NCBI GenBank assembly: GCA_947177415.1 | Contig: CAMWUK010000005.1 | Location: forward strand, 1,290-65,289 | Direction of reading: 5' to 3' | DNA from: an uncultured Clostridiaceae bacterium | GTDB lineage: Bacteria > Bacillota > Clostridia > Lachnospirales > Lachnospiraceae | DNA length: 64,000 nt | Part shown: piece after piece, positions 15 through 63,498 of the stretch | Numbering within the stretch: position 1 is the stretch's first letter | Layout of the letters: every line of letters starts with the position of its first letter | The notes under the pieces: generated by a model | The model's input: the letters and a program-made list of their open reading frames with translations, nothing else | What the model was told of the DNA's origin: nothing | Databases searched by the model: none | Program-made: the position numbers and the translations under genes

Positions 15-99
15 GTAACTGTTCAGAACCATGAACAGTTACGTTTAAGCCCATAATAATTCGCCTTCAGCGAAAGGGCTTAAACATTGTAAAATTTAT
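15..99 (+). mobile_element. MITE-like element, family A, right-truncated copy
   Basis: Hairpin GTAACTGTTCAGAACCATGAACAGTTAC (15-42) followed by stem-loop GTTTAAGCCC...GGGCTTAAAC (43-85). Near-identical to the first ~85 nt of the copies at 7712 and 31286. Confidence 0.8.
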
Positions 100-7678: not shown

Positions 7679-7711
7679 GATTTTATTCCTCCATACTATT
7701 CATATTTTCTT

Positions 7712-7846
7712 GTAACTGTTCAGAACCATGAACAGTTACATTTAAGCCCATAATTATTCGCCTTCGGCGAAGGGGCTTAAACATTGCAAAATTTACTTTT
7801 TCTTACGAAACAAGCAGTAAATGCTTGTTTCTACCTAAATAGTTAC
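7712..7846 (+). mobile_element. MITE-like element, family A, full length
   Basis: TIRs GTAACTGTTCAG / CTAAATAGTTAC. Three internal hairpin modules. Perfect 8-bp direct repeat ATTTTCTT at 7704-7711 and 7847-7854. Confidence 0.85.
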
Positions 7847-8251
7847 ATTTTCTTTTATTTTTTGAAATAACTTTAAAAATACTTCCTGTTCTGTCTTAGA
7901 TATCCCAGAAAACGCCTGCTCTTCAATATGTAAAAAACCTTGTTCCACAGATTCTGCCAGTTCCTTACCATAAGATGTCAGAAAAACATAGAGAGAACGT
8001 CTATTTCCATCTTTCATTCGACGCTCTACCATCTTTTTTTCCTCCATGCGGTTTAAAAGAACGGTAAGGGAACCAGGTTCAATATAACAGGCTTTGGCAA
8101 TTTCTTTCTGGCTTATGCCATCATGATCTCTTAAGTAATCCAGAATCTTTGGCTGCCCTATGGTCAGTTCTGTATCTTTCAGCTCTGTCAATAGAGATTT
8201 GTGAACCATCGCCTGATTTGCCATTAATAAATAGTGAAACGATTGTTCCAT
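7835..8251 (-). CDS. MarR family transcriptional regulator
   Basis: Winged-helix region LTIGQPKILDYLRDHDGISQKEIAKACYIEPGSLTVLLNRMEEKKMVERR. Start moved to the ATG at 8251, which has an AGGAGG RBS 9 nt upstream. The last 3 codons and the stop lie inside the MITE. Confidence 0.85.
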   Translation of the reverse strand: MEQSFHYLLMANQAMVHKSLLTELKDTELTIGQPKILDYLRDHDGISQKEIAKACYIEPGSLTVLLNRMEEKKMVERRMKDGNRRSLYVFLTSYGKELAESVEQGFLHIEEQAFSGISKTEQEVFLKLFQKIKENVTI

Positions 8252-8362
8252 TTCTGTATGCCCTCCTTTGTTTGAATTCAAATTGTTATAATTCTAACAA
8301 ATATTATAGGCACACTGTATAGAAATGTCAATTGTTTTTTGGAGGTATGTTTATTTCTTATT

Positions 8363-9658: not shown

Positions 9659-9708
9659 ATATATCAGATTGATATATTTATGTTATATCAGTCTGATATA
9701 TTTGTCAA
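9659..9708 (-). promoter_or_regulatory. Two palindromic operator candidates and a -35 box upstream of the 4Fe-4S/PadR operon
   Basis: ATATATCAGATTGATATAT (9659-9677) and TATATCAGTCTGATATA (9684-9700) share half-sites TATATCAG/CTGATATA. TTGACA on the minus strand at 9703-9708. Confidence 0.5.
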
Positions 9709-9829
9709 TATAAATCTAACATATATTTTGAGAAAACGATAAAAACATTAAAGCACCTGCCACATGACTATATCTTTCAGTCAGCAGCAAGTGCTTATAT
9801 GTTCCATATAAAATTACAAAAATTCTACT

Positions 9830-9990
9830 AGTGTACTGTCTCATTCATTTTCAACTAAATGACGCAGAATGAATTTTCACTCTGCAAGGCGACTGAACGA
9901 GGCGATACGATGGCGTCGTTGAGTGAAGCCAACATAGCAGATGGAAATTCAGACAAGTTATTTGGTGAAATGTGAATTATACAGTACGCT
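9830..9990. repeat. ~160-bp imperfect long palindrome with 10-bp terminal inverted repeats
   Basis: AGTGTACTGT (9830-9839) pairs with ACAGTACGCT (9981-9990). Internal arms also pair (TCATTCATTTTCAAC with GGTGAAATGTGAATTA). Single copy in this window. Confidence 0.5.
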
Positions 9991-10023
9991 AACCTCTGTA
10001 ACTGGATAAACTTTTATGTATCC

Positions 10024-10533
10024 TCAATTATTCATGTTATATATTATTCCCTCTAGTCTCAACAATTCTACTTTTTTCTCCAATCCTCCTGCATATCCAG
10101 TGAGATTACCATTTGCCCCTACCACTCTATGGCATGGCACAATAATAGAAATGGGGTTATGTCCTACTGCACCTCCAACCGCCTGTGCCGACATTCTGCT
10201 TATACCTCGTTTTTTCGCAATTTGTTTTGCAATCTCTCCATAAGTAGTTACTTCACCATAAGGAATTCCCATTAAAATATCCCATACTTCTTTGCGAAAT
10301 TCACTTCCCTTTAGAGAGATAGCAGGTGTAAAATCTGGCTCTATCCCACTAAAATAAATATCCAGCCATCTGGCAGTCTCATCAAAAATTGGCAAAGATT
10401 TTTTTATAGAATCTTCTGGAACCTCACTTTCATAGTATTTTTGCCTTTTAAATACTAAGCTGGTTAGAGTTGTTCCATCACTTACCATTATCATTTCTCC
10501 AAGTGGAGCATCATAACATTTCTGAAAATACAT
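10024..10533 (-). CDS. ogt: Methylated-DNA--protein-cysteine methyltransferase
   Basis: Active-site motif IIVPCHRVVG and HTH region GEVTTYGEIAKQI. ATG at 10533 has an AAGAGGTG RBS. Confidence 0.9.
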   Translation of the reverse strand: MYFQKCYDAPLGEMIMVSDGTTLTSLVFKRQKYYESEVPEDSIKKSLPIFDETARWLDIYFSGIEPDFTPAISLKGSEFRKEVWDILMGIPYGEVTTYGEIAKQIAKKRGISRMSAQAVGGAVGHNPISIIVPCHRVVGANGNLTGYAGGLEKKVELLRLEGIIYNMNN

Positions 10534-10552
10534 GCTTACACCTCTTTTTTCT

Positions 10553-12250
10553 CTATCCAATCAGCACTGTGCTTCCCTCAAAAGCAAAACCATAACAATG
10601 TATTCTCTCTTTTGGAATTCCTTTTGCAATTAAATCTGTGGCATAGCCTTTTTCTTCAATCTGTGTTAAGGCAGCATTGACTGTATCTTCCAGAGTATTT
10701 TCCCGCTTAGGTTTGTGTACCTTAAATTCCAAAATAATGGCATTCTGTCCACTTTCCAATGGTTCTAAGATTACATCATAACGACCGAAACCACTTTCCC
10801 GATTAGAAGTCAGCAGATAACGGTCACGGAGATCCACCAGCAATCCTAATACAAATCCATGGTAAAAACGTTCTGGCTGCTGCTTTTGGGAAGGATGTGT
10901 TCCTGTGTCAAAACTGCTAAAGATTTGTACTGCCACATCATTCATATATTCATTCATGGCATCCAAATCACCCTGTAGTAATGCTTTAATAAAGTTATTA
11001 TAGGAAGTTTTAGATGCCTTTGCAAACCAGCCTTTTATCATATTCCGAAACATAAGATAAACTTCTTTATTTGTAATCTGAAGCTCATAGGAGCAAATTC
11101 CTGAATCTAAATCCTGATCCACATTTTGCACTTTCAAATATCCGCTGGCAACAAAAAGACTCCAGATAGCATCCTCCTCTTCATCTAAGGCACTAAACAC
11201 AATCTGTTCATCCACTTCTGTAATAAAAGAATTGCCTTTTAGCAAATCCTCCATAATCATCTTTACATCCTGGCTGCCATTGCGGATTAGTTTCCCAACC
11301 AGACTATTGGAACTGGTATTCGCCCAGTAAGCTGCAAACTTCTTTTTATCCAGAAAATTAATAATAGACCATGGATTATAAATGTCCATTATGCTTCCAA
11401 AAGTAAAACCATCATACCATTTTTTCACATCTTCTTTTTTATCTGATAAGCCATACTGCTCCAAGGCTTTGAAAACCTCCTGCTCCGTAAAACCAAAACA
11501 GTCTGCATACTTTTCAGAAGTAGTGGTAACTACTTCAAGGTTATTCAAATCAGAAAAAATGGATTCTTTGCTCACTCTGGTAATCCCTGTCATAATGGCA
11601 CGATCCAAATAGGGGTTGGTCTTAAATGTGGAGTTAAACAAGCTTTGCATAAAAGAAACCAACTCTTCCCAATAACCTTTCGTATATGCTTCCTGCATAG
11701 GGGTATCGTATTCATCTAAAAGGATGATAACTTTTTTTCCATAATGTTTAGAAAGATAACAGGATAACCGGTGCAGGGACATGCAAGCAAGTGTATCATC
11801 CATCTTCTCTTTTTGTTCTATGGTTTCCCTAATATAAAATTTTTCATTTTCCGAAATCAAACCGCTATCAAGCAGGTTATTATAGAAATCATATAGATCT
11901 GCAATCATTCTGCATATATTTTCTCTTGTGTGGTTAAAACTTTCCTCTTTTATATTGGCAAAAGAAATACTAATTACAGGATAAGTCCCCTGTAATTCCC
12001 AGTACTTCTCCTCATTCCAGATAGAAAGTCCCTGAAATAACTCTCCCATTCCTTCATAATGGACAGAGAAAAATTGTTCCACCATGCTCATGTTCAAAGT
12101 TTTTCCAAAACGGCGTGGGCGTGTAATTAAAGTGACTATGTCCCCAGATTCCCACCATTCTTTTATAAAATTGGTTTTATCTATATAGAAATAATCTTTT
12201 GCCCGAAGTTCCCCAAAATTCTGTACACCTATGGCAACTGTTTTTGGCAT
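10553..12250 (-). CDS. AAA-ATPase-like domain protein with C-terminal PD-(D/E)XK-type nuclease domain
   Basis: N-terminus FGELRAKDYFYIDKTNFIKEW...ITRPRRFGKTLNMSM matches the predicted AAA-ATPase family. C-terminus GFGRYDVILEP...ILEFK matches the associated nuclease domain, from recollection. Start at ATG 12250 after a GGAGG RBS. Confidence 0.75.
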   Translation of the reverse strand: MPKTVAIGVQNFGELRAKDYFYIDKTNFIKEWWESGDIVTLITRPRRFGKTLNMSMVEQFFSVHYEGMGELFQGLSIWNEEKYWELQGTYPVISISFANIKEESFNHTRENICRMIADLYDFYNNLLDSGLISENEKFYIRETIEQKEKMDDTLACMSLHRLSCYLSKHYGKKVIILLDEYDTPMQEAYTKGYWEELVSFMQSLFNSTFKTNPYLDRAIMTGITRVSKESIFSDLNNLEVVTTTSEKYADCFGFTEQEVFKALEQYGLSDKKEDVKKWYDGFTFGSIMDIYNPWSIINFLDKKKFAAYWANTSSNSLVGKLIRNGSQDVKMIMEDLLKGNSFITEVDEQIVFSALDEEEDAIWSLFVASGYLKVQNVDQDLDSGICSYELQITNKEVYLMFRNMIKGWFAKASKTSYNNFIKALLQGDLDAMNEYMNDVAVQIFSSFDTGTHPSQKQQPERFYHGFVLGLLVDLRDRYLLTSNRESGFGRYDVILEPLESGQNAIILEFKVHKPKRENTLEDTVNAALTQIEEKGYATDLIAKGIPKERIHCYGFAFEGSTVLIG

Positions 12251-12343
12251 GCTGCCGCCTCCCATTTATCATATTTTCTTTTTATTGTATCAAATCCCTA
12301 CAAACGAAACAAGGGAAATTTGGTTTAATGACATTCTTATCCC

Positions 12344-13018: not shown

Positions 13019-13733
13019 AACAATTGGGCTAATGAAAAAATATAAAGACTTAACTGCAGTTGACAGCCTTGACTTAGTTGTGGAACAGGGAGAACTATTT
13101 TCCTTGCTTGGTGTCAATGGTGCGGGAAAAACAACCACAATAAAAATGCTTTCCTGCCTAACGAAACCGTCCAGTGGGGATGCAAAACTTCTTGGCAACA
13201 GCATTGTGCAGGACACAGCCCAAGTAAAAAATATTATTGGCGTATCCCCACAGGAGACAGCAGTTGCACCGAATCTTACTGTGAAAGAAAATCTGGAACT
13301 GATGTGTGGCGTTCATGGTTTTTCAAAAGAAAAGAGGAAAGTCAAGACAACGGAACTTTCCGAACAATTCGACTTGAATCAAATACTTAACAAAAAGGCT
13401 GGAAAACTGTCAGGCGGCTGGCAGCGAAGATTGAGTATTGCTATGGCTCTTATCAGTGAACCAAAGATCCTGTTTCTTGACGAGCCGACTTTAGGTTTAG
13501 ATGTGCTTGCCAGAAGTGATTTATGGGACACTATTCGTTCCCTTAAGGGTAAGATTACCATAATACTTACCACCCACTATATGGAAGAAGCAGAGGCTCT
13601 CTCTGACCGTATTGGTATAATGAGAGACGGAAAACTCCTTGCACTTGGAACGGCACACGAATTGAAAGAAAAGGCTGGAACTGACAAATTTGAAGATGCT
13701 TTTGTGGCGATTGTAAAGGGGGCTTTAAGATGA
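13005..13733 (+). CDS. ABC transporter ATP-binding protein
   Basis: Walker A GVNGAGKTT, signature LSGGWQRR, Walker B ILFLDEP. ATG at 13005 follows a GGAGAGGAG RBS. Confidence 0.9.
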   Translation: MEAIKTIGLMKKYKDLTAVDSLDLVVEQGELFSLLGVNGAGKTTTIKMLSCLTKPSSGDAKLLGNSIVQDTAQVKNIIGVSPQETAVAPNLTVKENLELMCGVHGFSKEKRKVKTTELSEQFDLNQILNKKAGKLSGGWQRRLSIAMALISEPKILFLDEPTLGLDVLARSDLWDTIRSLKGKITIILTTHYMEEAEALSDRIGIMRDGKLLALGTAHELKEKAGTDKFEDAFVAIVKGALR

Positions 13734-14461
13734 GATTACTAACTTTTTCAGGAAGAACAGCAAAAGAAATACTGCGTGACCCTTTAAATTTAGGATTTGG
13801 TTTGGGGTTCCCCCTTATATTGATATTCTTGCTTTCTGCAATACAGGCAAATGTACCTGTCAGTTTGTTTGAAATTGAGAGCCTTACCCCTGGCATTACC
13901 GTCTTTGGGCTCTCTTTTATGACACTGTTTGCTGCCACTTTAATTGCAAAGGACAGAGAAAGTGCTTTGCTGCAGCGGCTATATACAACTCCGCTTACAG
14001 CATTAGATTTCATTTTTGGATATGTCTTGCCAATTTTGCCTATTGTGGTAGCACAAAGTGTGATTTGCTATGTTGTGGCAATCCTGCTTGGTCTACCTGT
14101 TACGGTAACAATTGTATATGCAGTGCTTTTTATTATCCCTATATCTTTATTCTTTATTGCTTTGGGTCTGCTCTGTGGCAGTGTATTTGGTGTGAAACAG
14201 GTGGGCGGCATTTGTGGGGCATTGCTTACTAATCTAACTGCATGGCTTTCTGGTGTATGGTTTGACCTCAATCTTGTAGGGGGTGCTTTTAAGAAAATTG
14301 CAAACGCTTTGCCTTTTGTTCATGCTGTAGAACTGGAGAGAGCCGTATTAAAGGGAAATTATGCAGATATATTTCCACACATCTATTGGGTACTTGGCTA
14401 TACCATTGTTGCCGTTATTGTAGCGGTGCTGCTCTTTTTACGGCAGATGAAAAGACAATAA
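13730..14461 (+). CDS. ABC-2 type transporter permease
   Basis: 243 aa, 6 predicted TM segments. ATGA overlap with the upstream ATPase gene. Confidence 0.8.
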   Translation: MRLLTFSGRTAKEILRDPLNLGFGLGFPLILIFLLSAIQANVPVSLFEIESLTPGITVFGLSFMTLFAATLIAKDRESALLQRLYTTPLTALDFIFGYVLPILPIVVAQSVICYVVAILLGLPVTVTIVYAVLFIIPISLFFIALGLLCGSVFGVKQVGGICGALLTNLTAWLSGVWFDLNLVGGAFKKIANALPFVHAVELERAVLKGNYADIFPHIYWVLGYTIVAVIVAVLLFLRQMKRQ

Positions 14462-14526: not shown

Positions 14527-14528
14527 CC

Positions 14529-14560
14529 GTACTGTAAGCACCACAGTTGTGAACAGTAAC
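14529..14560. repeat. Degenerate copy of the family-B terminal hairpin module
   Basis: GTACTGTAAGCACCACAGTTGTGAACAGTAAC resembles GTTACTGTTTGCACTGTAGGCGTGAACAGTAAC at 59304-59336. Confidence 0.4.
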
Positions 14561-14579: not shown

Positions 14580-14966
14580 ATGAAGGTTTTACCACAAATT
14601 TCTGAGGCTGAATATGAAATTATGAAAGTTGTATGGAAACATGCACCAATTAATACGAATGAAATAACAGAGAAATTAACCCAAACTACAACTTGGCGTC
14701 CTAAAACAATACAGACTTTGATAAAACGTCTTGTAACGAAAGGTGTTCTTTCTTATGAAAAACAAGGCAGAGTATTTGTATATACTCCTCAGGTTAAAGA
14801 AAACGACTATGTTGGTCAAGAAAGTAATTCTTTTCTAAAGCGTTTTTATAATGGAAATATTACAACCATGCTATCTGCATACATAGAAAATGATAAACTG
14901 TCTGAAAAAGAAATAGACACTCTCCGTTCCCTTCTCTCTAAAAAGTCAAAAAAAGGAGGCAATTAA
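14580..14966 (+). CDS. blaI: BlaI/MecI/CopY family transcriptional repressor
   Basis: 128 aa. ISEAEYEIMKVVW...TTWRPKTIQTLIKRLVTKGVLSYEKQGRVFVYTP is the penicillinase-repressor signature. AAGGAGG RBS. Confidence 0.9.
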   Translation: MKVLPQISEAEYEIMKVVWKHAPINTNEITEKLTQTTTWRPKTIQTLIKRLVTKGVLSYEKQGRVFVYTPQVKENDYVGQESNSFLKRFYNGNITTMLSAYIENDKLSEKEIDTLRSLLSKKSKKGGN

Positions 14967-14967
14967 C

Positions 14968-16764
14968 ATGACTGGTTTTATAATACGCTTTTTTATATGC
15001 AACCTTTTTATCAGTGTTATTGTCGTAATCCTTTTGGTAGCCAAACAGATATTCAAAAATAATTTGTCTGCCCGCATGCAGTATAATTTGTGGTTTTTCT
15101 TTCTAGGACTGTTAGCAGTTCCTTTCATACCATTACGTCTAATTGGATTTCCACAGATATTTTCACTCCTTGAAATTCTAAAAAACTTCTCTGCATCAAA
15201 TGCTGAAACTGTTATAGAAAAATCTTCCAATGCAAATTTAATTGGAGCAGCAAACTGGATGAATGACTTTACTCTATCTGTCAGCATAGAAACACCTTCC
15301 AGGATTGGATTAATATTAACTGGAATATGGATTTTAGGTATTGTTGTAATGATTCTGCTGCTGGTAAAAATGTCCCTTCATCTACATATTTTGAAAAATT
15401 CTGCTCTTCCCCTTCAAAATCCGAAAGTTCGCAGGCTATACAATAATTGTTTAGATGAAATGAAAATAAAAAAACATATTCCAGTTTACAGTACTGCTTT
15501 TTTGAAATCTCCTATTATTATGGGTCTTTTTAAACCATGTATTTATCTGCCAATCCACCTGATATCAGACTATAATGCTACAGACCTGCGGTATATGTTA
15601 CTTCACGAACTACAGCATTACAAACACAGGGATGTTCTGGCAGGTTATATAATGAATGTTGCAAGCATGTTCTATTGGTTTAACCCTTTTGTTTGGCATG
15701 CACTAAAAGAAATGGGCAACGACAGGGAAATTGCTTGTGACACTGCTGTTTTGAGTATGCTTGAGGAAGATTCTTATGAAGATTATGGCAATACTCTAAT
15801 TAACTTTACGGAAAAATTGTCTTTATTCCCCTTTCCCTATATCTCTAAACTTAGCGGAAACAAAAAACAGATAAACCGTCGTATTATCAACATTGCCTCC
15901 TACGAAAAGCCATCATTTGGAAAAAAGTTAAAAAATATTATTTCATCTGGGATAATTGCCATTATGCTTTTAAGCCTTACTCCGATATTATCCACTTATG
16001 CAGCAGATGGAAACCATTACCAATGGAAATCTTACTCCAAGAATATTTCCATAGTGGACTTATCAACATTTTTTCATGGATATGAGGGCAGTTTTGTTCT
16101 ATACAACTTAGAAAGCAATACATGGAGCATATATAATATGGAGTATGCCACTTTAAGGATATCACCAAACTCTACATACAAAATTTATAATGCACTATTT
16201 GGATTGGAAGAAGGTATTATTACACCAGAAAACTCATTTATAGCTTGGGATAAAACAAATTATCCCATTAAAGCATGGAACACAGACCAGAACCTGGATT
16301 CTGCCATGCAGTTCTCCGTCAATTGGTATTTTCAGTCAATTGACAGACAGCTTGGTACATCTGCTGTAAAACACTACATACAGGAAACCGGATATGGAAA
16401 TGAGAACATATATGCAGATTTATCCTCTTATTGGATGCAGTCCTCCTTAAAAATTTCCCCTGTAGAACAAGTGGAACTTTTAACAAAATTATTTACAAAT
16501 GATCTGGATTTTGCACCAGAAAATATTAACACAGTAAAAAATTCTCTTCATATATTATCTACTAAGCATGGAGATTTTTATGGAAAAACGGGCACAGGTC
16601 AAGTAAATGAAAAAAATGTAAATGGATGGTTTGTTGGATGCATTACAAACAATGATAATACATATTTCTTTTCCACTAATATCCAATCTTCTGATAATGC
16701 TACAGGAAGCATGGCATCAGAAATTTCCTTGTCTATTTTATCTGATATGAATATATGGAAATAA
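14968..16764 (+). CDS. blaR1: BlaR1/MecR1-type beta-lactam sensor-transducer
   Basis: M56 zinc-protease motif LLHELQHYKHRD. C-terminal penicillin-binding sensor domain with STYK (SxxK) and KTGTG motifs. Confidence 0.9.
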   Translation: MTGFIIRFFICNLFISVIVVILLVAKQIFKNNLSARMQYNLWFFFLGLLAVPFIPLRLIGFPQIFSLLEILKNFSASNAETVIEKSSNANLIGAANWMNDFTLSVSIETPSRIGLILTGIWILGIVVMILLLVKMSLHLHILKNSALPLQNPKVRRLYNNCLDEMKIKKHIPVYSTAFLKSPIIMGLFKPCIYLPIHLISDYNATDLRYMLLHELQHYKHRDVLAGYIMNVASMFYWFNPFVWHALKEMGNDREIACDTAVLSMLEEDSYEDYGNTLINFTEKLSLFPFPYISKLSGNKKQINRRIINIASYEKPSFGKKLKNIISSGIIAIMLLSLTPILSTYAADGNHYQWKSYSKNISIVDLSTFFHGYEGSFVLYNLESNTWSIYNMEYATLRISPNSTYKIYNALFGLEEGIITPENSFIAWDKTNYPIKAWNTDQNLDSAMQFSVNWYFQSIDRQLGTSAVKHYIQETGYGNENIYADLSSYWMQSSLKISPVEQVELLTKLFTNDLDFAPENINTVKNSLHILSTKHGDFYGKTGTGQVNEKNVNGWFVGCITNNDNTYFFSTNIQSSDNATGSMASEISLSILSDMNIWK

Positions 16765-16783
16765 TCAAGGATTGCGAAATGGT

Positions 16784-17515
16784 TCACTTGATGATATGAA
16801 CTCTTGTTCCTTTCTTTTCGTACTCCTTAATCACCTTTAGTGTTACTGGAATAATACACAAGCGGACGCTTTCACCGTATGCAAAGTATGGATACACTCC
16901 AATTTCATTTTGATAATATAAGTCACTGGGAGGATTATCACTGTGAAAACCTTTCTCATTTGGAAATATATTGTCATACGCCAGTTTATTTATTTTTTTA
17001 TATAGCTGTGTGATTTTTTCTTTTGTTAGATTAGGGAAAAATACCTTTAAAGTATAAAAACAAATCTCTTCATATTTTTCATACATTATATCAGAATAAC
17101 TGTGATCATCAAAGTTTATTATTAATTCTTTAACAGAGTCTTCGCCCTCTGGTGTATAAATTGTAATTGTTGGAAGAGTCCATACTTTTTTATCTGTTTT
17201 AAATTCATAATAAATGTCACCCTTATGTTTTCCGAAATTCTGCACAAACGAACTCCATTCTGAATATGGCTGTAAATAATGAACACCTTTATCATTCCAA
17301 TAGTATTTATTATAACAACTAATAAAATCGTTAATGGAGATAGAAAATTTCAGATAATCATTTTTATTATCTTGTGCTTTAATCATTAGTGTAGAAATTT
17401 CTTCCTTTTTGATAGAAGTTTCACTTGTATAACCCTTATATAAAAATACCACATACCCTATTAAAACTAGTAATATGGTTACAAGAATAATTGTTTTTTT
17501 ATTCACCTGCTTCAC
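16784..17515 (-). CDS. Hypothetical membrane-anchored protein
   Basis: 243-aa ORF with an N-terminal TM segment (IILVTILLVLIGYVVFL). No known motif. Confidence 0.55.
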   Translation of the reverse strand: MKQVNKKTIILVTILLVLIGYVVFLYKGYTSETSIKKEEISTLMIKAQDNKNDYLKFSISINDFISCYNKYYWNDKGVHYLQPYSEWSSFVQNFGKHKGDIYYEFKTDKKVWTLPTITIYTPEGEDSVKELIINFDDHSYSDIMYEKYEEICFYTLKVFFPNLTKEKITQLYKKINKLAYDNIFPNEKGFHSDNPPSDLYYQNEIGVYPYFAYGESVRLCIIPVTLKVIKEYEKKGTRVHIIK

Positions 17516-17523
17516 CTTCCTAA

Positions 17524-18834
17524 TCAGTCACCAATTTGATTCAAATTAGCAGATATATTCTGAATCCCATTCTCCAAAATCTTGTTTCCTAAATACTTAA
17601 ATCCTCCATTTTTATTAAACTTAATGATAAGTTCATGGGTTATAGCAGCATCATCACATAAAACCATTTCACATACAGCATCTACAGTTAATGTGACTGT
17701 GCCATTCTTATTTTCTTTTATTTTCGTAACCTCAGGTACAGAAGTTCCAATAAAAGATGGTATATAGTTAAAACATCCTGCTTCTCCCCATGTATAAATC
17801 TGTTTTCCTTCATCAAATGTTACATATTTTTGTAGCTGTTTTGCTGTTATTGGAAGATATTCCATAATCACACACTCAAATTCTTTTTTGGGTATTCCTT
17901 CTGGATAACTCTCTGCAGGAAATTCCTTCTGATATTTCATTTCATACAGATACCTATACATTCCCTTGTAATCTAATTTCTCCATGTGTTTATCATCCCA
18001 ATCTGAATTTAAAAGATTATGCCCTTGATATCCCAATCCTTTTACACATTTTTTTGACATCTCACGATGTTGTTCGTTCATTGGCTTTACTCTCACTAAA
18101 TAGCTCCCGTCAACCATTTCACTAACTTCTGGCAAATCTGGCACACATAAATTATAGCAGAACCAGCCTTTCTTTGTATATCTCCACTCCTTTATTCTGG
18201 TATAGGAACTATAGGTAATCTCTGGTTTATTTTCCTTATCCCATATCGCACTTGTGCTTAAAACATACATATCTGTCCCATTAAAAATATATTTCATTCT
18301 ATTTATCCCACCATCAGAACGAATTTCGTATATTACTTTTTGGCTGCTTTTATTTCCCTGACATTTTTTTAGAAAATCTTCCATATCCTTACAATTTTCC
18401 ATGTTGGAATATGTCACAGCTGTCGTAACAGGGCATCTTGTTTCTTTCAGTTTATCCTGCATCTTTAAAACCGTGTCATCCGAAAGAACAACATTAGATG
18501 TCTCCCCTTTTTTTGCATATTTATAAATATCAGAAATAAGGTCCATCACTTTTTTACAATCCCTTTCTGCTTCTTTCCTTTCTCCATCATCAATTGGGAG
18601 ATTATATCCTTTTTCCAGTTGTTCTTGTTCTTCTTTTGAGTTATTCTGTTTTGAAGCCAGCTCCTCACTATCATTTTCTGGAATATGTATCTTTGTCTGG
18701 GGTACATTGCTACACCCTGCAATCCCAGATAAAACAAGAATACATGCCGCACACAAATACCTTCCTAAGTTTCTGCTAATTGTTACCAAACCATTCTTCC
18801 AAAACCTGTTTATCTTTTTCAACAACATAACCAC
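17524..18834 (-). CDS. Putative lipoprotein, unknown function
   Basis: 436 aa with a lipobox-like LSGIAGC. The 5' end overlaps the PBP gene by ~59 nt, so the true start is uncertain. Confidence 0.6.
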   Translation of the reverse strand: MVMLLKKINRFWKNGLVTISRNLGRYLCAACILVLSGIAGCSNVPQTKIHIPENDSEELASKQNNSKEEQEQLEKGYNLPIDDGERKEAERDCKKVMDLISDIYKYAKKGETSNVVLSDDTVLKMQDKLKETRCPVTTAVTYSNMENCKDMEDFLKKCQGNKSSQKVIYEIRSDGGINRMKYIFNGTDMYVLSTSAIWDKENKPEITYSSYTRIKEWRYTKKGWFCYNLCVPDLPEVSEMVDGSYLVRVKPMNEQHREMSKKCVKGLGYQGHNLLNSDWDDKHMEKLDYKGMYRYLYEMKYQKEFPAESYPEGIPKKEFECVIMEYLPITAKQLQKYVTFDEGKQIYTWGEAGCFNYIPSFIGTSVPEVTKIKENKNGTVTLTVDAVCEMVLCDDAAITHELIIKFNKNGGFKYLGNKILENGIQNISANLNQIGD

Positions 18835-21105: not shown

Positions 21106-21149
21106 TTATCATCAATTGACCTATTAAGCATATATTCTCCTATTTAACT

Positions 21150-21230: not shown

Positions 21231-21242
21231 GTTACTTATCAA

Positions 21243-21452: not shown

Positions 21453-21455
21453 ACT

Positions 21456-25604: not shown

Positions 25605-25670
25605 CGTTACAGTTCACATCTACGATGCAAACTGTAACAGAATCCAGCCTATTTGTAATTCGCCTTTGGC
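25605..25670 (-). repeat. Family-B element, truncated copy
   Basis: CGTTACAGTTCACATCTACGATGCAAACTGTAACAGAATCCAGCCTATTTGTAATTCGCCTTTGGC matches the reverse complement of 45175-45240. Confidence 0.7.
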
Positions 25671-26313: not shown

Positions 26314-26448
26314 GTAACTCTTTAAATAGAAACACGCATTTACTGCGTGTTTCGTAAGAAGAAGTAAATTTTGTAATGTTTAAGCCCCTTCGCCAAAGGC
26401 GAATTATTATGGGCTTAAACGTAACTGTTCATGGTTCTGAACAGTTAC
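26314..26448 (-). mobile_element. MITE-like element, family A, full length
   Basis: Reverse complement of the 7712/31286 copies. 8-bp direct repeat AGAAAATT (26306-26313) / AGAAAATC (26449-26456), 7/8 identical. Supplies the last 13 codons and the stop of the ABC ATPase. Confidence 0.85.
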
Positions 26449-27866: not shown

Positions 27867-27872
27867 ATCAGT

Positions 27873-31285: not shown

Positions 31286-31420
31286 GTAACTGTTCAGAAG
31301 CATGAACAGTTACGTTTAAGCCCATGAATATTCGCCTTCGGCGAAGGGGCTTAAACATTGTAAAATTTACTTTTTCTTACGAAACACGCAGTAAATGCGT
31401 GTTTCTACCTGAATAGTTAC
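31286..31420 (+). mobile_element. MITE-like element, family A, full length
   Basis: TIRs GTAACTGTTCAG / CTGAATAGTTAC. 8-bp direct repeat CCTTCCTT (31278-31285) / CTTTCCTT (31421-31428), 7/8 identical. The TIR supplies the kinase stop codon. Confidence 0.85.
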
Positions 31421-33825: not shown

Positions 33826-33962
33826 AGTAACTATTCAGGTAGAAACACGCATTTACTGCGTGTTTACGTAGCAAAATGTAAATTTTGATTGTTCTAAGCC
33901 CTTCGCTGAAGGCGAATTATCATGGGCTCAGAACATAACTGTTCATGGTTCTGAACAGTTAT
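33826..33962 (-). mobile_element. MITE-like element, family A, diverged full-length copy
   Basis: GTAACTATTCAGG...CTGAACAGTTAT. Perfect 8-bp direct repeat GTTTATGA at 33818-33825 and 33963-33970. The module stem has compensatory changes. Confidence 0.8.
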
Positions 33963-34424: not shown

Positions 34425-34464
34425 GTCTGCACAGCAGAGTGTGCAGACCTACCTGAACTGTTAC
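34425..34464 (+). repeat. Partial MITE end (family D-like hairpin plus TIR)
   Basis: GTCTGCACAGCAGAGTGTGCAGACCTACCTGAACTGTTAC parallels 48914-48954. Confidence 0.6.
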
Positions 34465-43435: not shown

Positions 43436-43463
43436 GTAACTGTTCATAGTTCAGAACAGTTAC
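43436..43463. repeat. Bare TIR-TIR hairpin of the GTAAC family
   Basis: GTAACTGTTCATAGTTCAGAACAGTTAC, with a 10-bp stem. Confidence 0.7.
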
Positions 43464-44199: not shown

Positions 44200-44305
44200 G
44201 AAAAATGAAAGTTGATTGCTACGCACTCCCACAATCACTAACTGTATGAGTATTCCGGACTGTCGCTCTACATACTCATACAGTTTGGCTGGACTTTCAG
44301 GGTAA

Positions 44306-45095: not shown

Positions 45096-45240
45096 GTTAC
45101 TGTTCACTCACAAGCTTGACACTTACTGTCAAGCTATGTGCCAAGAACATAGAGCAGCCAAGAATCCAGCCTTTTGCCAAAGGCGAATTACAAATAGGCT
45201 GGATTCCGTTACAGTTTGCACCGTAGGTGTGAACTGTAAC
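45096..45240 (+). mobile_element. MITE-like element, family B, full length
   Basis: Ends GTTACTGTTCAC / GTGAACTGTAAC. Internal hairpins AGCTTGACA..TGTCAAGCT and GAATCCAGCC..GGCTGGATTC. Other copies at 54685, 25605 and 59304. No clear TSD. Confidence 0.7.
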
Positions 45241-48818: not shown

Positions 48819-48954
48819 GTAACAGTTCAGCTGAGGGCTGTCCTGTTACGGCTCACAGCAAGCTAACACATGCAAATTGCTGTGAGCCACACTTAATTTA
48901 CACTTTCATACGTCCCTGCACAGCAAGGTGTGCAGGGACTACCTGAACTGTTAC
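48819..48954 (+). mobile_element. MITE-like element, family D (same TIR class, different interior)
   Basis: GTAACAGTTCAG ... CTGAACTGTTAC. Perfect 8-bp direct repeat TTATTGCT at 48811-48818 and 48955-48962. Internal hairpins GGCTCACAGCAA..TTGCTGTGAGCC and TCCCTGCACA..TGTGCAGGGA. Confidence 0.85.
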
Positions 48955-54008: not shown

Positions 54009-54036
54009 GTAACTGTTCAGAACCATGAACAGTTAC
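54009..54036. repeat. Bare TIR-TIR hairpin of the GTAAC family
   Basis: GTAACTGTTCAGAACCATGAACAGTTAC, identical to module A of family A. Confidence 0.75.
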
Positions 54037-54684: not shown

Positions 54685-54802
54685 GTTACATTACTGTTCA
54701 CTCACAAGCTTAACACTTGCTATCAAGCTATGTGCCAAGAATGTAAAACAAGCAAGAATCCAGCCTTTCGCTGAAGGCGAATTATAATAGGCTGGATTCC
54801 GG
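54685..54802 (+). repeat. Family-B element, right-truncated copy
   Basis: About 85% identical to 45096-45206. Lacks the terminal hairpin module. Confidence 0.7.
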
Positions 54803-55707: not shown

Positions 55708-55846
55708 TTTTGGTTCCCCTTTCTTCTACACTCCAAATATACATTTGCCTTTGTTTACGACATACTTATCATATCATGGCAGTATAACGTTTCTGTATTC
55801 TATCAGTAAACAAATGGGAAACAAATGTAAAACTTTTGGTAACCGT

Positions 55847-57268
55847 TCAGCCGGAGACTGACCTATTACAAAACTGCACCACCACTGTTGTTCCTTTTCC
55901 TGTTTCAGAAAAAAATGTCATTGTCCCTTCATGTTCCTGCACTATCTGCTGACACAAAGATAAACCAAGTCCGCTTCGTCCTTCCTTTCTCCCTCTTGCC
56001 CTATCCGCACGGTAAAATGGCTCTGTAATTCTATCCATTTGTTCCTTTGTCATACCACATCCATTGTCCTGTACGCAGATTTTTGTTTCTGTTTCCGTTC
56101 CGGTTACTGTTATGGAAACAGTCCCTGTGTCTCCGCAGGCAAAGATACTGTTACTGACCAGATTAAAAAGCAGACTTTGAAGCAGCAATTCATTTCCATA
56201 TAAATCTTCCACTTGGCTATGGCACAAAAGTTGCACTCCTGCATCCCTGCAATGCTTCTGTGTCTGTTTCTGTAAAACCGAAAACAGCCCTGCCACAGCT
56301 ATTTTCTTTTTTTCAATGCTGTATGTACGAAGTTTCGCCATATCCAAAAGCGTATAAGACAAATGAAGCAAACGGTCACTTTCCTCCATAATAATACCCA
56401 TGCATTCTAACATTTCATCATACGGTACATTCCCCTTTTCTACATATTCTGCATAACCATAAATGCTCGTAAGCGGACTTTTTAATTCATGGGCAAAGTT
56501 ATCTGCAAACTGTTGTTTTGCCTTTGCTTCGCCCTGTATATGAAGCATATCCATCTGAATGTGTTCTGCCATTTCATTAAAATGCTCCCCAAGAGTAGCA
56601 ATATCATCCGTTCCCTTTGGATATACACGGCTATCCAGATTTCCTCCTGCCATATCGTCTACAGCTTTTGTCAGCAGCCGGATAGGATGCATCATTCTGC
56701 GAAGCACAAAAAATAGCAATACTGCAAGCCCTAAGGAAAATGCTACACTGATGATGATATACTGCTTTTCTAATGTACCCCAAGTATCCTGAAGTTTTGT
56801 CAATGGCTTTTCATATCGGATGTAATAAATTTCTTCACCCTCATATAAAATCCCTTCAACCTGCATCTGTTTTACCCCATTTTCAGTAGATATCACCATC
56901 TGATATTCATCCACTTCCCCTGCTGCCTGTTCAGACACTTTTTCTTGTTCCAGTCTTTCTGGATAAATATAACTTTTACTATCCCATACAGTTAGTGCAA
57001 TCTTCTGTTTTGTATAATAATTTTCATAAACTTCCAACACACTCTTCATTTGTGAGAGCTTCAATCTATCCTTTTTTTCTAACTCAGTAAAATTTCTATA
57101 AATTCCTTCTGTAAGCATATAAAATTCCGTTTCTGCCTGCTGCTGCTCTAAGATAATATCCTTATTGTAGGTCATTTGGAACACCAAATAGATTCCGCAG
57201 TCTAACAGCACCACAAATATAGCGATTGTAATCAAATATATCTTCTGCCATAGTTTCATCCATGCCAC
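55847..57268 (-). CDS. Sensor histidine kinase
   Basis: TM, extracytoplasmic loop, TM, HAMP. H-box FAHELKSPLTSIYGYAEY. G-boxes DNGCGM and GLGLSL. Confidence 0.9.
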   Translation of the reverse strand: MAWMKLWQKIYLITIAIFVVLLDCGIYLVFQMTYNKDIILEQQQAETEFYMLTEGIYRNFTELEKKDRLKLSQMKSVLEVYENYYTKQKIALTVWDSKSYIYPERLEQEKVSEQAAGEVDEYQMVISTENGVKQMQVEGILYEGEEIYYIRYEKPLTKLQDTWGTLEKQYIIISVAFSLGLAVLLFFVLRRMMHPIRLLTKAVDDMAGGNLDSRVYPKGTDDIATLGEHFNEMAEHIQMDMLHIQGEAKAKQQFADNFAHELKSPLTSIYGYAEYVEKGNVPYDEMLECMGIIMEESDRLLHLSYTLLDMAKLRTYSIEKKKIAVAGLFSVLQKQTQKHCRDAGVQLLCHSQVEDLYGNELLLQSLLFNLVSNSIFACGDTGTVSITVTGTETETKICVQDNGCGMTKEQMDRITEPFYRADRARGRKEGRSGLGLSLCQQIVQEHEGTMTFFSETGKGTTVVVQFCNRSVSG

Positions 57269-57916: not shown

Positions 57917-58009
57917 TGTTTTTCCTCGCTTTCCTAAGCATATACTTTCTGTTTTATTATATTATGCCAAAAGAAAGTAACGAATCAGTAAACAAATCTG
58001 CATCCCTCT

Positions 58010-59111: not shown

Positions 59112-59231
59112 GTAACTGTTCAGAACCCCTCATTCGGATTTTTCCAGAATATACATAATATCAATAATTTCCCACAATGGCTGGTAAAAATCCTCATGTG
59201 GATATCACTTTTGCAGGTTCTGAATAGTTAC
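59112..59231 (+). mobile_element. MITE-like element with GTAAC-family TIRs and a unique interior
   Basis: GTAACTGTTCAGAACC ... GGTTCTGAATAGTTAC (16-bp TIR, 15/16). Direct repeat TATCAATT (59104-59111) / TATCAGTT (59232-59239), 7/8 identical. Confidence 0.75.
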
Positions 59232-59303: not shown

Positions 59304-59336
59304 GTTACTGTTTGCACTGTAGGCGTGAACAGTAAC
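59304..59336. repeat. Isolated family-B terminal hairpin module
   Basis: GTTACTGTTTGCACTGTAGGCGTGAACAGTAAC; compare 45208-45240. Confidence 0.65.
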
Positions 59337-61764: not shown

Positions 61765-61818
61765 GTAACTATTCAGGTAGAAACATGCAGTAAATGCGTG
61801 TTTCTCCCTGACAATTAC
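61765..61818. repeat. Mini element: GTAAC-type TIR, family-A hairpin module C, degenerate TIR
   Basis: GTAACTATTCAGGTAGAAACATGCAGTAAATGCGTGTTTCTCCCTGACAATTAC. Confidence 0.6.
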
Positions 61819-63474: not shown

Positions 63475-63498
63475 GTGCAGACCTATCTGAATTGTTAC
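63475..63498 (+). repeat. Partial MITE end (TIR)
   Basis: GTGCAGACCTATCTGAATTGTTAC parallels 34441-34464 and 48931-48954. Its GTTAC contains the stop codon of the phosphoesterase gene. Confidence 0.5.

What the first reader, a model, noticed from the sequence alone, without database searches (positions are those of the whole stretch)
7704..7854. Dense superfamily of hairpin-rich MITE-like elements sharing the TIR GTAAC(T/A)GTTCAG and 8-bp target duplications
Full-length ~135-bp family-A copies and their flanking 8-mers:
- 7712-7846: ATTTTCTT / ATTTTCTT.
- 26314-26448 (reverse complement): AGAAAATT / AGAAAATC.
- 31286-31420: CCTTCCTT / CTTTCCTT.
- 33826-33962 (reverse complement): GTTTATGA / GTTTATGA.
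- 15-99 is a truncated copy.

The same TIR class and an 8-bp duplication also bound elements with unrelated interiors:
- 48819-48954: TTATTGCT / TTATTGCT.
- 59112-59231: TATCAATT / TATCAGTT.

Other related pieces are a mini element at 61765-61818, bare TIR-TIR hairpins at 43436-43463 and 54009-54036, and ends at 34425-34464 and 63475-63498.

Family B (45096-45240, 54685-54802, 25605-25670, 59304-59336) has the related ends GTTACTGTTCAC / GTGAACTGTAAC.

That makes at least 10 copies in 64 kb. All are intergenic or at gene ends, and there is no transposase in the window.
Basis: seen in the sequence. Interest (0 to 1): 0.7.

Follow-up and report, generated by a model that had tools for sequence, protein, structure and literature searches.

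The report
IS66-derived miniature transposons in gut Clostridia
The window is peppered with short, hairpin-rich, non-coding transposon relics (MITEs) whose 12-16-base ends and 8-base target duplications match a transposase-carrying insertion sequence of the IS66 family found in related gut bacteria, so this is a real but conceptually ordinary kind of mobile DNA.

Summary
GTAACWGTTCAG (1 mismatch allowed) occurs 27 times in the window against 0.5 expected. About 20 elements or fragments lie between genes or at gene ends. 8-bp flanking duplications are statistically solid: 64 of 152 end pairs match at 7/8 or better, against 0-1 in offset controls.

The MITE reading is supported, and I found the missing partner. 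Outside the window, 1.79-1.83-kb insertion sequences encode one DDE_Tnp_IS66 transposase. Their ends are GTAACTGTTCAGAACCCC or GTAACTATTCAGCACCCC, and they show perfect 8-bp duplications at 12 independent sites. This is the single-gene ISBst12-type architecture. The published ISDge4 has nearly the same ends.

A near-identical genome (97-98%) gives one filled-versus-empty site.

No autonomous copy was found in the window or in 394 kb of the related MAGs, so mobilisation in trans is inferred.

Extras:
- 27-34-bp end-loop-end hairpins carry their own duplications.
- A hairpin next to one end is kept by compensatory changes.
- The Rfam "Clostridiales-1 RNA" lies inside long copies of the main family.

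Verdict: new member of a known kind, moderate interest.

The parts
15..99 (+). Family-A MITE, truncated at its 3' side. It keeps the end-hairpin H1 and the middle hairpin H2 but lacks H3 and the right end.
   Evidence: Sequence read; repeat families D2 and D6.
7712..7846 (+). Family-A MITE, full length (135 bp). Layout: H1 (end + 4 nt + inverted end, 28 bp), H2, H3, right end. Target duplication ATTTTCTT / ATTTTCTT at 7704-7711 and 7847-7854. It supplies the last 3 codons and the stop of the MarR-family ORF 7835-8281(-).
   Evidence: TSD 8/8; DNA fold -32 kcal/mol, z = -7.7.
14527..14560 (.). Family-B-type end-loop-end hairpin with a degenerate left arm, in the intergenic gap between 13730-14461(+) and 14580-14966(+).
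   Evidence: Repeat family D12.
25606..25670 (-). Family-B fragment: the terminal hairpin GTTACAGTTCAC..GCAAACTGTAAC plus part of the interior.
26314..26448 (-). Family-A MITE, full length. Target duplication GATTTTCT / AATTTTCT (7/8). It encodes the last 13 residues (VTVQNHEQLRLSP) and the stop of the ABC-ATPase ORF 26407-27072(-).
31286..31420 (+). Family-A MITE, full length. Target duplication CCTTCCTT / CTTTCCTT (7/8). It lies between the histidine-kinase gene 31417-32814(-) and the next gene, whose likely start is the ATG at 31268.
33827..33962 (-). Family-A MITE, full length (136 bp). Target duplication TCATAAAC / TCATAAAC (8/8).
34425..34464 (+). Right-end fragment of a family-C-type element: the hairpin next to the end (GGTCTGCACAG..TGTGCAGACC) followed by the end CTGAACTGTTAC.
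   Evidence: alignment A3.
43436..43463 (.). Solo 28-bp end-loop-end hairpin with no flanking duplication.
44206..44299 (-). Internally deleted copy of the Rfam Clostridiales-1 RNA module. It is flanked by family-A interior motifs but has no ends, so it reads as a decayed long family-A MITE.
   Evidence: RF01699, 48.5 bits against a gathering score of 48.
45096..45240 (+). Family-B MITE, full length (145 bp), with ends GTTACTGTTCAC / GTGAACTGTAAC. This copy has no recognisable duplication.
   Evidence: family-B copies elsewhere have 8-bp duplications.
48819..48954 (+). Family-C MITE (136 bp) with perfect 12-bp ends GTAACAGTTCAG. Target duplication TTATTGCT / TTATTGCT (8/8). It abuts the stop of ORF 48955-49452(-).
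54009..54036 (.). Solo 28-bp hairpin identical to H1 of family A, lying between two genes. No duplication.
54685..54802 (+). Family-B MITE lacking its right terminal hairpin.
   Evidence: Repeat family D7.
55839..55869 (.). Degenerate family-C-type end hairpin (GTAACCGTTCAGCCGGAGACTGACCTATTAC) at the 3' end of the histidine-kinase ORF 55847-57268(-).
57950..57960 (.). Empty site. The window has a single TCTGTTTT here. The 97-98% identical L020 has TCTCTTTT, then a 31-bp family-B hairpin, then TCTCTTTT.
59112..59231 (+). Family-D MITE (120 bp). Target duplication TATCAATT / TATCAGTT, which is perfect in L020. Its left end GTAACTGTTCAGAACCCCTCATTC matches about 24 nt of the right end of the autonomous IS in L240/L244.
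59304..59336 (.). Solo 33-bp family-B hairpin. Target duplication TATATATA / TATATATT, which is 8/8 in L020.
61765..61818 (-). Remnant of a family-A copy: right end plus H3, then a degenerate end. L020 has a full 135-bp copy at the same left junction, flanked by GTTGCACA x2, and different DNA beyond it.
63475..63498 (+). Family-C-type right-end fragment (..GTGCAGACCTATCTGAATTGTTAC) at the stop of ORF 63495-63971(-).

Best explanation
These are MITEs, that is, non-autonomous deletion or mosaic derivatives of a single-gene IS66-family insertion sequence (ISBst12-type architecture) that circulates in gut Lachnospiraceae and other Clostridia.

**Shown**
- The elements are 27-300 bp long and non-coding.
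- They end in the inverted 12-mer GTAACWRTTCAG. Family B uses the variant GTTACWGTTCAC.
- They are flanked by 8-bp, AT-rich direct duplications.
- They are multi-copy: at least 83 duplication-flanked copies in 458 kb.
- They nest into one another.
- One site is filled in one genome and empty in a 97-98% identical genome.
- 1.79-1.83-kb elements with the same ends (up to 16-18 nt identical: GTAACTGTTCAGAACCCC) carry one DDE_Tnp_IS66 transposase gene. They have perfect 8-bp duplications at 12 independent sites and interrupt genes.

**Inferred**
- The IS66-family DDE transposase, supplied in trans, binds the 12-16-bp ends, pairs two of them, and inserts the element into a target cut with an 8-bp stagger. 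Repair of the stagger makes the duplication.
- Any short DNA bracketed by two ends can be moved this way. That would explain several families with different interiors, and cargo such as the Clostridiales-1 RNA module.
- The hairpin next to the right end is conserved in structure but not in sequence, and the left end is often an end-loop-end hairpin. The hairpin next to the end is probably needed for transposition (binding of the transposase or a host factor), or it protects or terminates transcripts. Which of these applies is not known.

**Effects on the host seen here**: copies sit in short intergenic gaps, and some replace the last 3-13 codons of genes.
For: **Motif enrichment**: 27 hits against 0.48 expected.

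**8-bp duplications**
- 64 of 152 end pairs match at 7/8 or better, against 0-1 in offset controls.
- 33 of 41 testable full family-A copies match at 7/8 or better (one of the 42 abuts a locus edge).
- For family B, 16 of 49 pairs match, against 0 in controls.
- 83 duplication-flanked elements fall into at least 4 interior families plus solo hairpins.

**Insertion polymorphism**: L020 carries a 31-bp hairpin flanked by TCTCTTTT x2 where the window has one copy of the 8-mer and no hairpin.

**Autonomous partner**
- L240 645-2440 is 1796 bp, has GTAACTATTCAG at both ends, and is flanked by CTATGGCA x2. Its ORF matches PF03050 at E = 2.5e-39.
- Intact 478-491-aa homologues number more than 5,000. 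One is named "IS66 family transposase [Anaerostipes sp. 494a]". It scores 279.5 bits on NCBIfam transpos_IS66, against a cut-off of 180.
- Perfect 8-bp duplications flank the IS at AATAGAAG, ACTTAAAC, TTTTTATT, CAATCATT, GCTCGCTT, ACCGGATC, ACTTAAAT, AAATCATC, AGAAAATC, AAACTTTT and GAAACCTT.
- There is a single gene between the ends.
- The published ISDge4 (ISBst12 group) has ends GTGACTACTCAGCA / GTAACTGCTCAGCA, an 8-bp direct repeat, and a single 449-aa transposase ORF (PMC12898284).

**Hairpins**
- Family A folds as DNA with z = -7.7.
- In the hairpin next to the right end, 91% of cells are paired, 7 of 9 pairs show compensatory changes, and 0 of 500 shuffles reach the observed value.
Against: - No autonomous copy was found in the window or in 394 kb of the MITE-rich relatives. 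No MITEs were found in the DNA held around the IS copies. So the partner and the MITEs have not been seen in one genome. MAG binning tends to drop 1.8-kb repeat contigs, which makes this absence weakly informative.
- Only one filled-versus-empty comparison was possible. The few bases just downstream of that site also differ between the two genomes.
- Apart from family D's left end, similarity between the MITEs and the IS is limited to the terminal 12-16 nt.
- Transposition has not been shown experimentally for this IS clade or for these MITEs.
Confidence: 0.85

Rival explanations
1. These are REP/BIME-like structural palindromes, spread by a RAYT-type (IS200/IS605-like) tyrosine transposase or kept purely as host structural or regulatory motifs, rather than elements moved by a DDE transposase.
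For: The elements are hairpin-rich and intergenic. Many solo hairpins have no duplication, including the two in the window. The hairpin stems are kept by compensatory changes.
Against: Fixed 8-bp duplications flank most intact copies, and REPs make none. The ends are identical to those of an IS66-family DDE element. No Y1/RAYT gene was seen in the 40 window ORFs scanned.
Confidence: 0.03
2. The partner is the IS4/IS5-type transposase found next to a GTAAC end in L119, L236 and related contigs.
For: L119 1426-2108 is bounded by GTAAC ends and the duplication AAAAGATT x2, and it contains the N-terminal part of a DDE_Tnp_1-type transposase.
Against: That transposase belongs to an element with its own ends (CAATGTCATTTAGTTAA) and a duplication of about 10 bp. 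This is seen as a separate MITE in L056. In L236 a GTAAC-type MITE with its own duplication GATCTAAC x2 sits inside that IS. The two families are nested in each other and are not partners.
Confidence: 0.03
3. The 27-34-bp solo hairpins are not mobile units. They are remnants of full-length copies, left after deletion between the inner arm of the end-hairpin and the direct repeat formed by the other end. The original duplication stays in place.
For: The inner arm (ATGAACAGTTAC) and the right end (CTGAATAGTTAC) are 10/12 identical direct repeats. One solo (L032 3491) has a hybrid arm. Pairing two ends that are 4 bp apart in one transposase complex is sterically awkward (inference).
Against: - 24 solos carry duplications matching at 7/8 or better, and most have the pure inner-arm sequence.
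- Solos with duplications occur in four different genomes (titles).
- The L020 hairpin that is absent from the window would need an insertion followed by a deletion within about 2-3% divergence.
Confidence: 0.45
4. The elements have been co-opted. They persist because their transcripts or hairpins act for the host, as sRNA (the Clostridiales-1 module), RNA stabilisers, attenuators or protein-binding sites, with transposition only as the vehicle.
For: A curated Rfam structured-RNA family lies inside the long family-A copies. The hairpin next to the end shows compensatory changes across families. Copies are placed at gene ends.
Against: - No canonical terminator signature.
- Orientation relative to neighbouring genes is mixed in the window: two copies in each orientation beside minus-strand genes.
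- Both G-T and A-C mismatches occur in the stems, so no strand preference is detectable.
- No expression data.
Confidence: 0.2

Closest known systems
ISBst12 group of the IS66 family (for example ISDge4 of Deinococcus geothermalis, PMC12898284)
   Same: - A single transposase gene with a DDE_Tnp_IS66 domain and no tnpA or tnpB.
- Ends of the type GTAACTGNTCAG(C/A)A.
- An 8-bp target duplication.
- Length about 1.6-1.8 kb.
   Different: The window holds only non-coding 27-300-bp derivatives. The gut-Clostridia IS copies with matching ends are 38-44% identical to the relatives with ISDge4-type GTAACTGCTCAG ends recovered from other (non-gut) metagenome records. I found no paper in the held library that links MITEs to IS66 or ISBst12-type elements.
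Classical bacterial MITEs (Correia/CREE of Neisseria, RUP of Streptococcus pneumoniae, Nezha, Chunjie; review PMC10969869)
   Same: Short, non-coding, bounded by terminal inverted repeats, flanked by a fixed-length target duplication, multi-copy, intergenic, foldable into hairpins, variable in size, and accompanied by truncated relatives.
   Different: - The duplication is 8 bp and the ends are IS66-type. From my own knowledge, RUP and Correia duplicate TA.
- Several interior families share only the terminal 12 nt.
- One end is itself an end-loop-end hairpin, and this hairpin also occurs alone with its own duplication.
- A curated Rfam RNA motif travels as cargo.
REP/BIME elements with RAYT transposases
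   Same: Abundant intergenic palindromes, including solo hairpins of about 30 bp.
   Different: REPs have no target duplication and no terminal inverted repeats matching a DDE insertion sequence. They are associated with a Y1 transposase. The elements here have 8-bp duplications and IS66-type ends.
Rfam RF01699 Clostridiales-1 RNA (Weinberg et al. 2010, PMC2864571)
   Same: Full-length matches of 118-130 bits lie in related loci, and a borderline truncated match lies in the window at 44206-44299.
   Different: In these genomes the motif is not a free-standing gene. At least 5 of about 14 copies lie inside roughly 295-bp elements bounded by the GTAAC ends, and 3 of those 5 are flanked by 8-bp duplications. 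Others lie in a different MITE family or are stand-alone. The 2010 paper lists the motif only as "Clostridiales, human gut" and not cis-regulatory.

Membership tests
MITE (prokaryotic miniature inverted-repeat transposable element) | Short (under about 500 bp) and without coding capacity for a transposase | tested here: met
   Elements are 27-297 bp. tblastn with the partner transposases finds nothing in the window or in L001-L056.
MITE (prokaryotic miniature inverted-repeat transposable element) | Terminal inverted repeats | tested here: met
   GTAACWRTTCAG lies at both ends in inverted orientation. Family B uses GTTACWGTTCAC.
MITE (prokaryotic miniature inverted-repeat transposable element) | Target-site duplication of fixed length | tested here: met
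   The duplication is 8 bp. 64 of 152 pairs match at 7/8 or better, against 0-1 in offset controls, and no perfect duplication extends to 9 bp.
MITE (prokaryotic miniature inverted-repeat transposable element) | Many dispersed copies in one genome | tested here: met
   About 20 elements or fragments lie in the 64-kb window. 42 full family-A copies were recovered.
MITE (prokaryotic miniature inverted-repeat transposable element) | Ends and duplication length match those of an autonomous insertion sequence | tested here: met
   IS66-family elements of 1.79-1.83 kb have ends GTAACTGTTCAGAACCCC or GTAACTATTCAGCACCCC and 8-bp duplications at 12 sites.
MITE (prokaryotic miniature inverted-repeat transposable element) | Insertion polymorphism (filled versus empty sites) between close relatives | tested here: met
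   One site. L020 302-332 (hairpin plus TCTCTTTT x2) corresponds to window 57950-57960, which has a single 8-mer and no hairpin. This is the only comparison available, and a few neighbouring bases also differ.
MITE (prokaryotic miniature inverted-repeat transposable element) | Mobilisation in trans by the partner transposase | not testable with these tools
   This needs a transposition assay.
IS66 family, ISBst12-type (applies to the autonomous partner, not to the window elements) | Transposase with the IS66-family DDE domain | tested here: met
   PF03050 at E = 2.5e-39. NCBIfam NF033517 scores 279.5 bits against a cut-off of 180.
IS66 family, ISBst12-type (applies to the autonomous partner, not to the window elements) | 8-bp target duplication and ends beginning GTAA | tested here: met
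   That GTAA ends and an 8-bp duplication typify the whole IS66 family is from my own knowledge (Han et al. 2001, not read here).
IS66 family, ISBst12-type (applies to the autonomous partner, not to the window elements) | A single ORF, with no tnpA or tnpB accessory genes | tested here: met
   Only one called gene lies between the ends in L247-L263 and L345-L354.
IS66 family, ISBst12-type (applies to the autonomous partner, not to the window elements) | Partner present in the same genome as the MITEs | tested here: inconclusive
   No IS was found in the window plus 394 kb of MITE-rich relatives, and no MITEs were found beside the IS copies. Whole genomes could not be searched.
REP/BIME-RAYT system | No target duplication, and association with a Y1 (RAYT) transposase | tested here: not met
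   8-bp duplications are present. No such gene appears among the 40 window ORFs scanned.
Rfam RF01699 Clostridiales-1 RNA (for 44206-44299 and the long family-A copies) | Covariance-model score at or above the gathering threshold | tested here: met
   The window match scores 48.5 against a threshold of 48, which is borderline and comes from an internally deleted copy. L006, L031 and L047 score 96-130 bits.

The most novel reading that the evidence does not exclude
There are two linked readings.

1. The 27-34-bp end-loop-end hairpins, which are two 12-nt transposase sites and a 3-9-nt spacer, are themselves transposable. To my knowledge that would make them the smallest TIR-bounded mobile units described in bacteria. 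Family A would then be a composite built on such a unit.
2. The Rfam "Clostridiales-1 RNA" is not a conventional chromosomal sRNA gene. It is cargo, or the functional core, of IS66-type MITEs. That would explain its multi-copy, context-free distribution, and would mean a structured RNA is being spread by a transposase.
Probability: 0.35. Interest if true: 0.65.

Novelty: new member of a known kind. Interest (0 to 1): 0.5.

Why it matters
- **Annotation.** The result names a dense and apparently undescribed MITE superfamily in gut Clostridia and Lachnospiraceae, and ties it to a specific partner, a single-gene IS66-family element. The ends and the 8-bp duplication can be used directly to mask these repeats, to call strain-level insertion polymorphisms in metagenomes, and to correct gene ends. 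At least two ORFs in this window take their last codons and stop from a MITE.
- **IS66 biology.** Transposition of single-gene IS66-family elements is poorly characterised. Dozens of natural minimal substrates define the required end as about 12 nt plus an adjacent hairpin.
- **An Rfam family.** The results suggest that one Rfam "sRNA" family is mobile-element cargo, which changes how that motif should be studied.

Tried and rejected
- **IS4/IS5-type transposase as partner.** It lies next to a GTAAC end in L119 and L236. Rejected because it has its own ends (CAATGTCATTTAGTTAA) and a duplication of about 10 bp, and the two families are simply nested in each other.
- **BLAST of families A, B, C, D and the long A variant** against the plasmid and phage collections: no match.
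- **Literature search** for the 12-mer end in either orientation returned only unrelated primers. Searches for MITE + Lachnospiraceae, MITE + ISBst12 and MITE + IS66 found no described equivalent.
- **My own recollection** that the Chunjie MITE was linked to ISBst12 in Geobacillus was wrong. Chunjie is from Geobacter.
- **Direct search for long elements** bounded by these ends, with duplications, in the window and L001-L056: none. The one long repeat between loci is a contig overlap carrying rml genes.
- **Most viral-contig hits** to 16-mers of the end were coding-sequence coincidences (VTVQVE...) or a crAss-like phage gene.
- **Co-residence of IS and MITEs** on one contig: not found. Cluster look-ups gave no host names.
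- **Strand-specific (RNA-level) selection** judged from G-T versus A-C mismatches: too few events, and both kinds occur.
- **Intrinsic-terminator role:** the hairpins are not followed by T-runs.
Full report

Yes. The 12-mer GTAACWGTTCAG, allowing one mismatch, occurs 27 times in the 64-kb window. Dinucleotide-preserving shuffles give 0.48 on average, with a largest count of 3.

The host is a low-GC Firmicute of the Clostridia: Pfam finds BlaR1, MecA_N-type PBP and LrgB domains, and Rfam finds a Clostridiales-1 match.

Most loci come from one animal-gut MAG (Clostridiales bacterium Mgla_MAG_39-bin_2). Others come from a Lachnospiraceae MAG, a Eubacteriales MAG, a Ruminococcus MAG and Faecalicatena orotica DSM 1287. 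Window 57655-61672 is 97-98% identical to locus L020 of the first MAG, so that MAG is a very close relative of the source organism.

**2. Are the flanking duplications more than chance?**

I pooled the window with the 56 loci (458 kb).
- 152 pairs of inward-facing ends lie 20-400 bp apart. In 64 of them the 8 bases outside the two ends match at 7 or 8 positions. The same comparison offset by 8, 12 or 20 bp gives 0-1 such pairs.
- No perfect duplication extends to 9 bp.
- Of 42 full-length family-A copies recovered with a profile search, 25 have 8/8 and 8 have 7/8.
- Family B (ends GTTACWGTTCAC) behaves the same way: 16 of 49 pairs match, against 0 in controls. This includes a copy nested in another MITE with CATTACAT on both sides.
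- In total, 83 duplication-flanked elements fall into family A (36), family B (13), family C (about 6), family D (4) and 24 solo hairpins of 27-34 bp.
- The duplicated 8-mers are AT-rich, at 80-90% A+T in the central positions against 65% background, and show no consensus.

**3. Polymorphism**

The overlap with L020 allows one direct test.
- **Filled versus empty site.** L020 reads TCTCTTTT, then GTTACTGTTCCCACCTACAGTGAACAGTAAC, then TCTCTTTT. The window has a single TCTGTTTT and no hairpin. A few bases just downstream also differ, so the site is not perfectly clean.
- **Family-D copy.** The copy at 59112 is shared by both genomes, with a perfect duplication in L020 (TATCAGTT x2). L020 has an extra palindromic insert of about 60 bp inside it.
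- **Window 61765-61818.** The window holds a 54-bp remnant here. L020 holds a complete 135-bp family-A copy flanked by GTTGCACA x2, and the DNA beyond it differs. This marks a rearrangement breakpoint at the element.

**4. Anatomy**

Family A (135 bp) has four parts:
- H1, made of the 12-nt end, 4 nt, and the inverted end (28 bp in all);
- H2, a GC-rich nested hairpin;
- H3, a 9-10-bp stem with the loop AGTAAAT;
- the other end.

As single-stranded DNA it folds at -32 kcal/mol, with z = -7.7 against shuffles.

The hairpin next to the right end (H3) recurs in families A and C and in the diverged copies from other species, with different stem sequences. In an alignment of 21 distinct right ends:
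- 91% of cells are paired;
- 7 of 9 pairs show changes on both sides;
- no shuffle out of 500 reaches the observed covariation;
- slid controls pair only 18-56%.

Families A and C share one layout. Family D is different.

The hairpins are not followed by T-runs and do not look like intrinsic terminators. Mismatches in the stems include both G-T and A-C types, so no strand preference can be read from them.

**5. The autonomous partner**

Nothing longer than 300 bp is bounded by these ends in the 458 kb.

One false lead appeared first. A 683-bp element in a viral contig (L119) has GTAAC ends and AAAAGATT duplications, and it carries the start of an IS4/IS5-type transposase. That transposase belongs to a separate element with its own ends (CAATGTCATTTAGTTAA) and a duplication of about 10 bp. 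The two element families nest in each other.

Scanning viral contigs with extended end sequences then found L240 645-2440:
- it is 1796 bp long;
- GTAACTATTCAG lies at both ends;
- CTATGGCA lies on both sides;
- one frameshifted gene inside has a DUF6444 N-terminal region and a DDE_Tnp_IS66 domain (PF03050, E = 2.5e-39).

Intact homologues of 478-491 aa are very numerous, with more than 5,000 at E ≤ 1e-20. They typically sit on contigs of about 1.8 kb, as expected for a repeat that breaks assemblies. One is named "IS66 family transposase [Anaerostipes sp. 494a]", a Lachnospiraceae member. It scores 279.5 bits on NCBIfam transpos_IS66, against a cut-off of 180.

Reading the DNA around these genes gives elements of 1793-1833 bp with a single gene. 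Their ends are:
- GTAACTATTCAGCACCCC / GTA(A/T)CTATTCAGGACACCC in one subgroup;
- GTAACTGTTCAGAACCCC / GTA(A/T)CTGTTCAGA(A/G)CCC in another. The transposase of this subgroup is 62-63% identical to that of the first.

Perfect 8-bp duplications flank them at 12 independent sites. Several copies split recognisable genes, namely an N6/N4 methyltransferase and a SLFN/AlbA-type gene.

The second subgroup's first 16 nt, GTAACTGTTCAGAACC, are exactly the left end of families A and D. The left end of family D matches about 24 nt of the right end of the L240-type IS.

More distant relatives (38-44% identity), recovered from other (non-gut) metagenome records, keep ends of the type GTAACTGCTCAG or GTAACTACTCAG. 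A 2026 paper reports ISDge4 (ISBst12 group of IS66; one 449-aa transposase ORF) transposing with ends GTGACTACTCAGCA / GTAACTGCTCAGCA and an 8-bp direct repeat (PMC12898284).

The partner therefore meets the tested criteria for an IS66-family element of the single-gene ISBst12 type.

**6. Mechanism**

Shown:
- ends shared between the short elements and a transposase-bearing IS;
- the same duplication length;
- many copies, nesting, and one polymorphic site.

Inferred: the IS66-family DDE transposase acts in trans on any pair of inward-facing 12-16-nt ends and inserts the segment at an 8-bp staggered cut. This explains why families with different interiors share only the ends.

The role of the conserved hairpin next to the end is not known. 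Its conservation by compensatory change argues that it is needed, either for transposition or at the RNA level.

**7. What is not shown**

- No autonomous copy was found in the window or in the related MAG loci.
- No MITEs were found in the DNA held around the IS copies.
- The genome collection could be scanned only once, so whole genomes could not be checked.
- MAG binning usually discards 1.8-kb repeat contigs, so this absence says little.

**8. Solo hairpins**

Twenty-four hairpins of 27-34 bp, each just two ends and a short loop, carry duplications matching at 7/8 or better. They occur in four different genomes, and the polymorphic L020 site is one of them.

Two explanations remain open:
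- they move as such, which would make them remarkably small transposable units;
- they are remnants left by deletion between the inner arm of H1 and the other end, which are 10/12 identical direct repeats. One solo has a hybrid arm that fits this model.

I rate the two roughly equally.

**9. An unexpected link to Rfam**

The only Rfam match in the window is Clostridiales-1 RNA (RF01699) at 44206-44299. It is borderline, at 48.5 bits against a threshold of 48. It proved to be an internally deleted copy of a module that, in related loci, lies inside roughly 295-bp versions of family A.
- Full-length matches of 118-130 bits sit exactly between H2 and H3 of elements bounded by the GTAAC ends and flanked by duplications, for example L006 1131-1424 with TACACTAT x2.
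- About 14 copies are present in the 458 kb. At least 5 are inside such elements, 4 more have one end nearby (one of these lies in a different MITE family), and 3 stand alone.
- The 2010 paper that defined the motif lists it only as "Clostridiales, human gut" and not cis-regulatory.

**10. Effects on genes in the window**

Copies sit in intergenic gaps of tens of bases, or they overlap gene ends.
- The MITE at 26314-26448 encodes the last 13 residues and the stop of an ABC-ATPase ORF.
- The MITE at 7712-7846 encodes the last 3 residues and the stop of a MarR-family ORF.
- Orientation relative to neighbouring genes is mixed.

**11. Verdict**

It is a new member of a known kind: MITEs, here derived from single-gene IS66-family elements. 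I could find no description of this family or of IS66-derived MITEs in the held literature, but absence from that library is not proof.

Interest is moderate. The concept is ordinary. The density of copies, the identified partner, the tiny hairpin elements and the Rfam link make it a useful and testable system.

Noticed in passing
window 44206-44299 (-); L006 1217-1374, L031 7524-7681 and 3134-3300, L047 3370-3527 and 4331-4487: The Rfam Clostridiales-1 RNA (RF01699) lies inside roughly 295-bp variants of the family-A MITE, and inside one other MITE family. The window copy is a decayed fragment. The module is always bracketed by TTTAC..|TGAAAGT...ACTTTCA|TT.
   Followed up: partly
L056 6930-7141; L119 1442-2040; L235 and L236 left parts: A second, unrelated mobile family: an IS4/IS5-type element with ends CAATGTCATTTAGTTAA and a duplication of about 10 bp, plus its own MITE. 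Twice it is inserted immediately after the 16th base of a GTAAC-type end. In L236 it is itself interrupted by a GTAAC-type MITE.
   Followed up: partly
L002 5131-5275, L024 2994-3138, L032 5616-5757: Family-B copies are repeatedly inserted into the ends of other elements (duplications AACAGTTC, TTACTGTT, TGACAGTT). This hints at a target preference for the end sequence or for its hairpin.
   Followed up: no
window 33485-34320: Segments of about 45-80 bp are repeated at spacings of 526-664 bp with 87-93% identity (repeat families D10, D14 and D15). This lies in a 1-kb stretch with no ORF of 100 aa or more, and the family-A MITE at 33827-33962 sits between the two copies.
   Followed up: no
window 27075-28737: Two adjacent genes (27075-27866 and 27873-28721, minus strand) are tandem paralogues, 76-89% identical at the DNA level. 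Pfam gave no match for the first and the second was not scanned. They lie downstream of an ABC ATPase.
   Followed up: no
window 51069-51153 (+): ARAGORN calls an 85-nt tRNA-Arg(TCT) inside, and antisense to, the MatE-family ORF 50686-52020. It is probably a false positive.
   Followed up: no
window 14968-25064: Two BlaR1/M56-type sensor genes (14968-16764 and 23028-25064) lie near a PBP with a MecA_N NTF2-like N-terminal domain (18776-20896). This looks like a mec/bla-type beta-lactam sensing and resistance module in a gut Clostridium.
   Followed up: no
window 36471-40505 (-), 41760-42734 (+), 10553-12265 (-), 54048-54554 (-): Defence or accessory gene content: a 1344-aa fusion of T5orf172, ResIII helicase and Eco57I-type methylase; a WYL/HTH regulator; an AAA-ATPase_like + PDDEXK_9 protein; and an Imm68 immunity protein.
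   Followed up: no
L020 383-1242 versus window 57997-58009: The near-identical MAG carries about 860 bp that the window lacks (apparently coding; ORFs not checked). The window has about 12 unrelated bases in its place, right next to the polymorphic hairpin site.
   Followed up: no
L345/L346/L351 about 9662-11474; L347/L348/L350/L352/L354: The autonomous IS66-type element interrupts an N6/N4 DNA methyltransferase gene and a SLFN/AlbA_2-HATPase_c_4 gene. Both lie in integrase- and MobA-bearing islands that also carry JetABC/Wadjet-like genes, in pig and human gut metagenomes.
   Followed up: no
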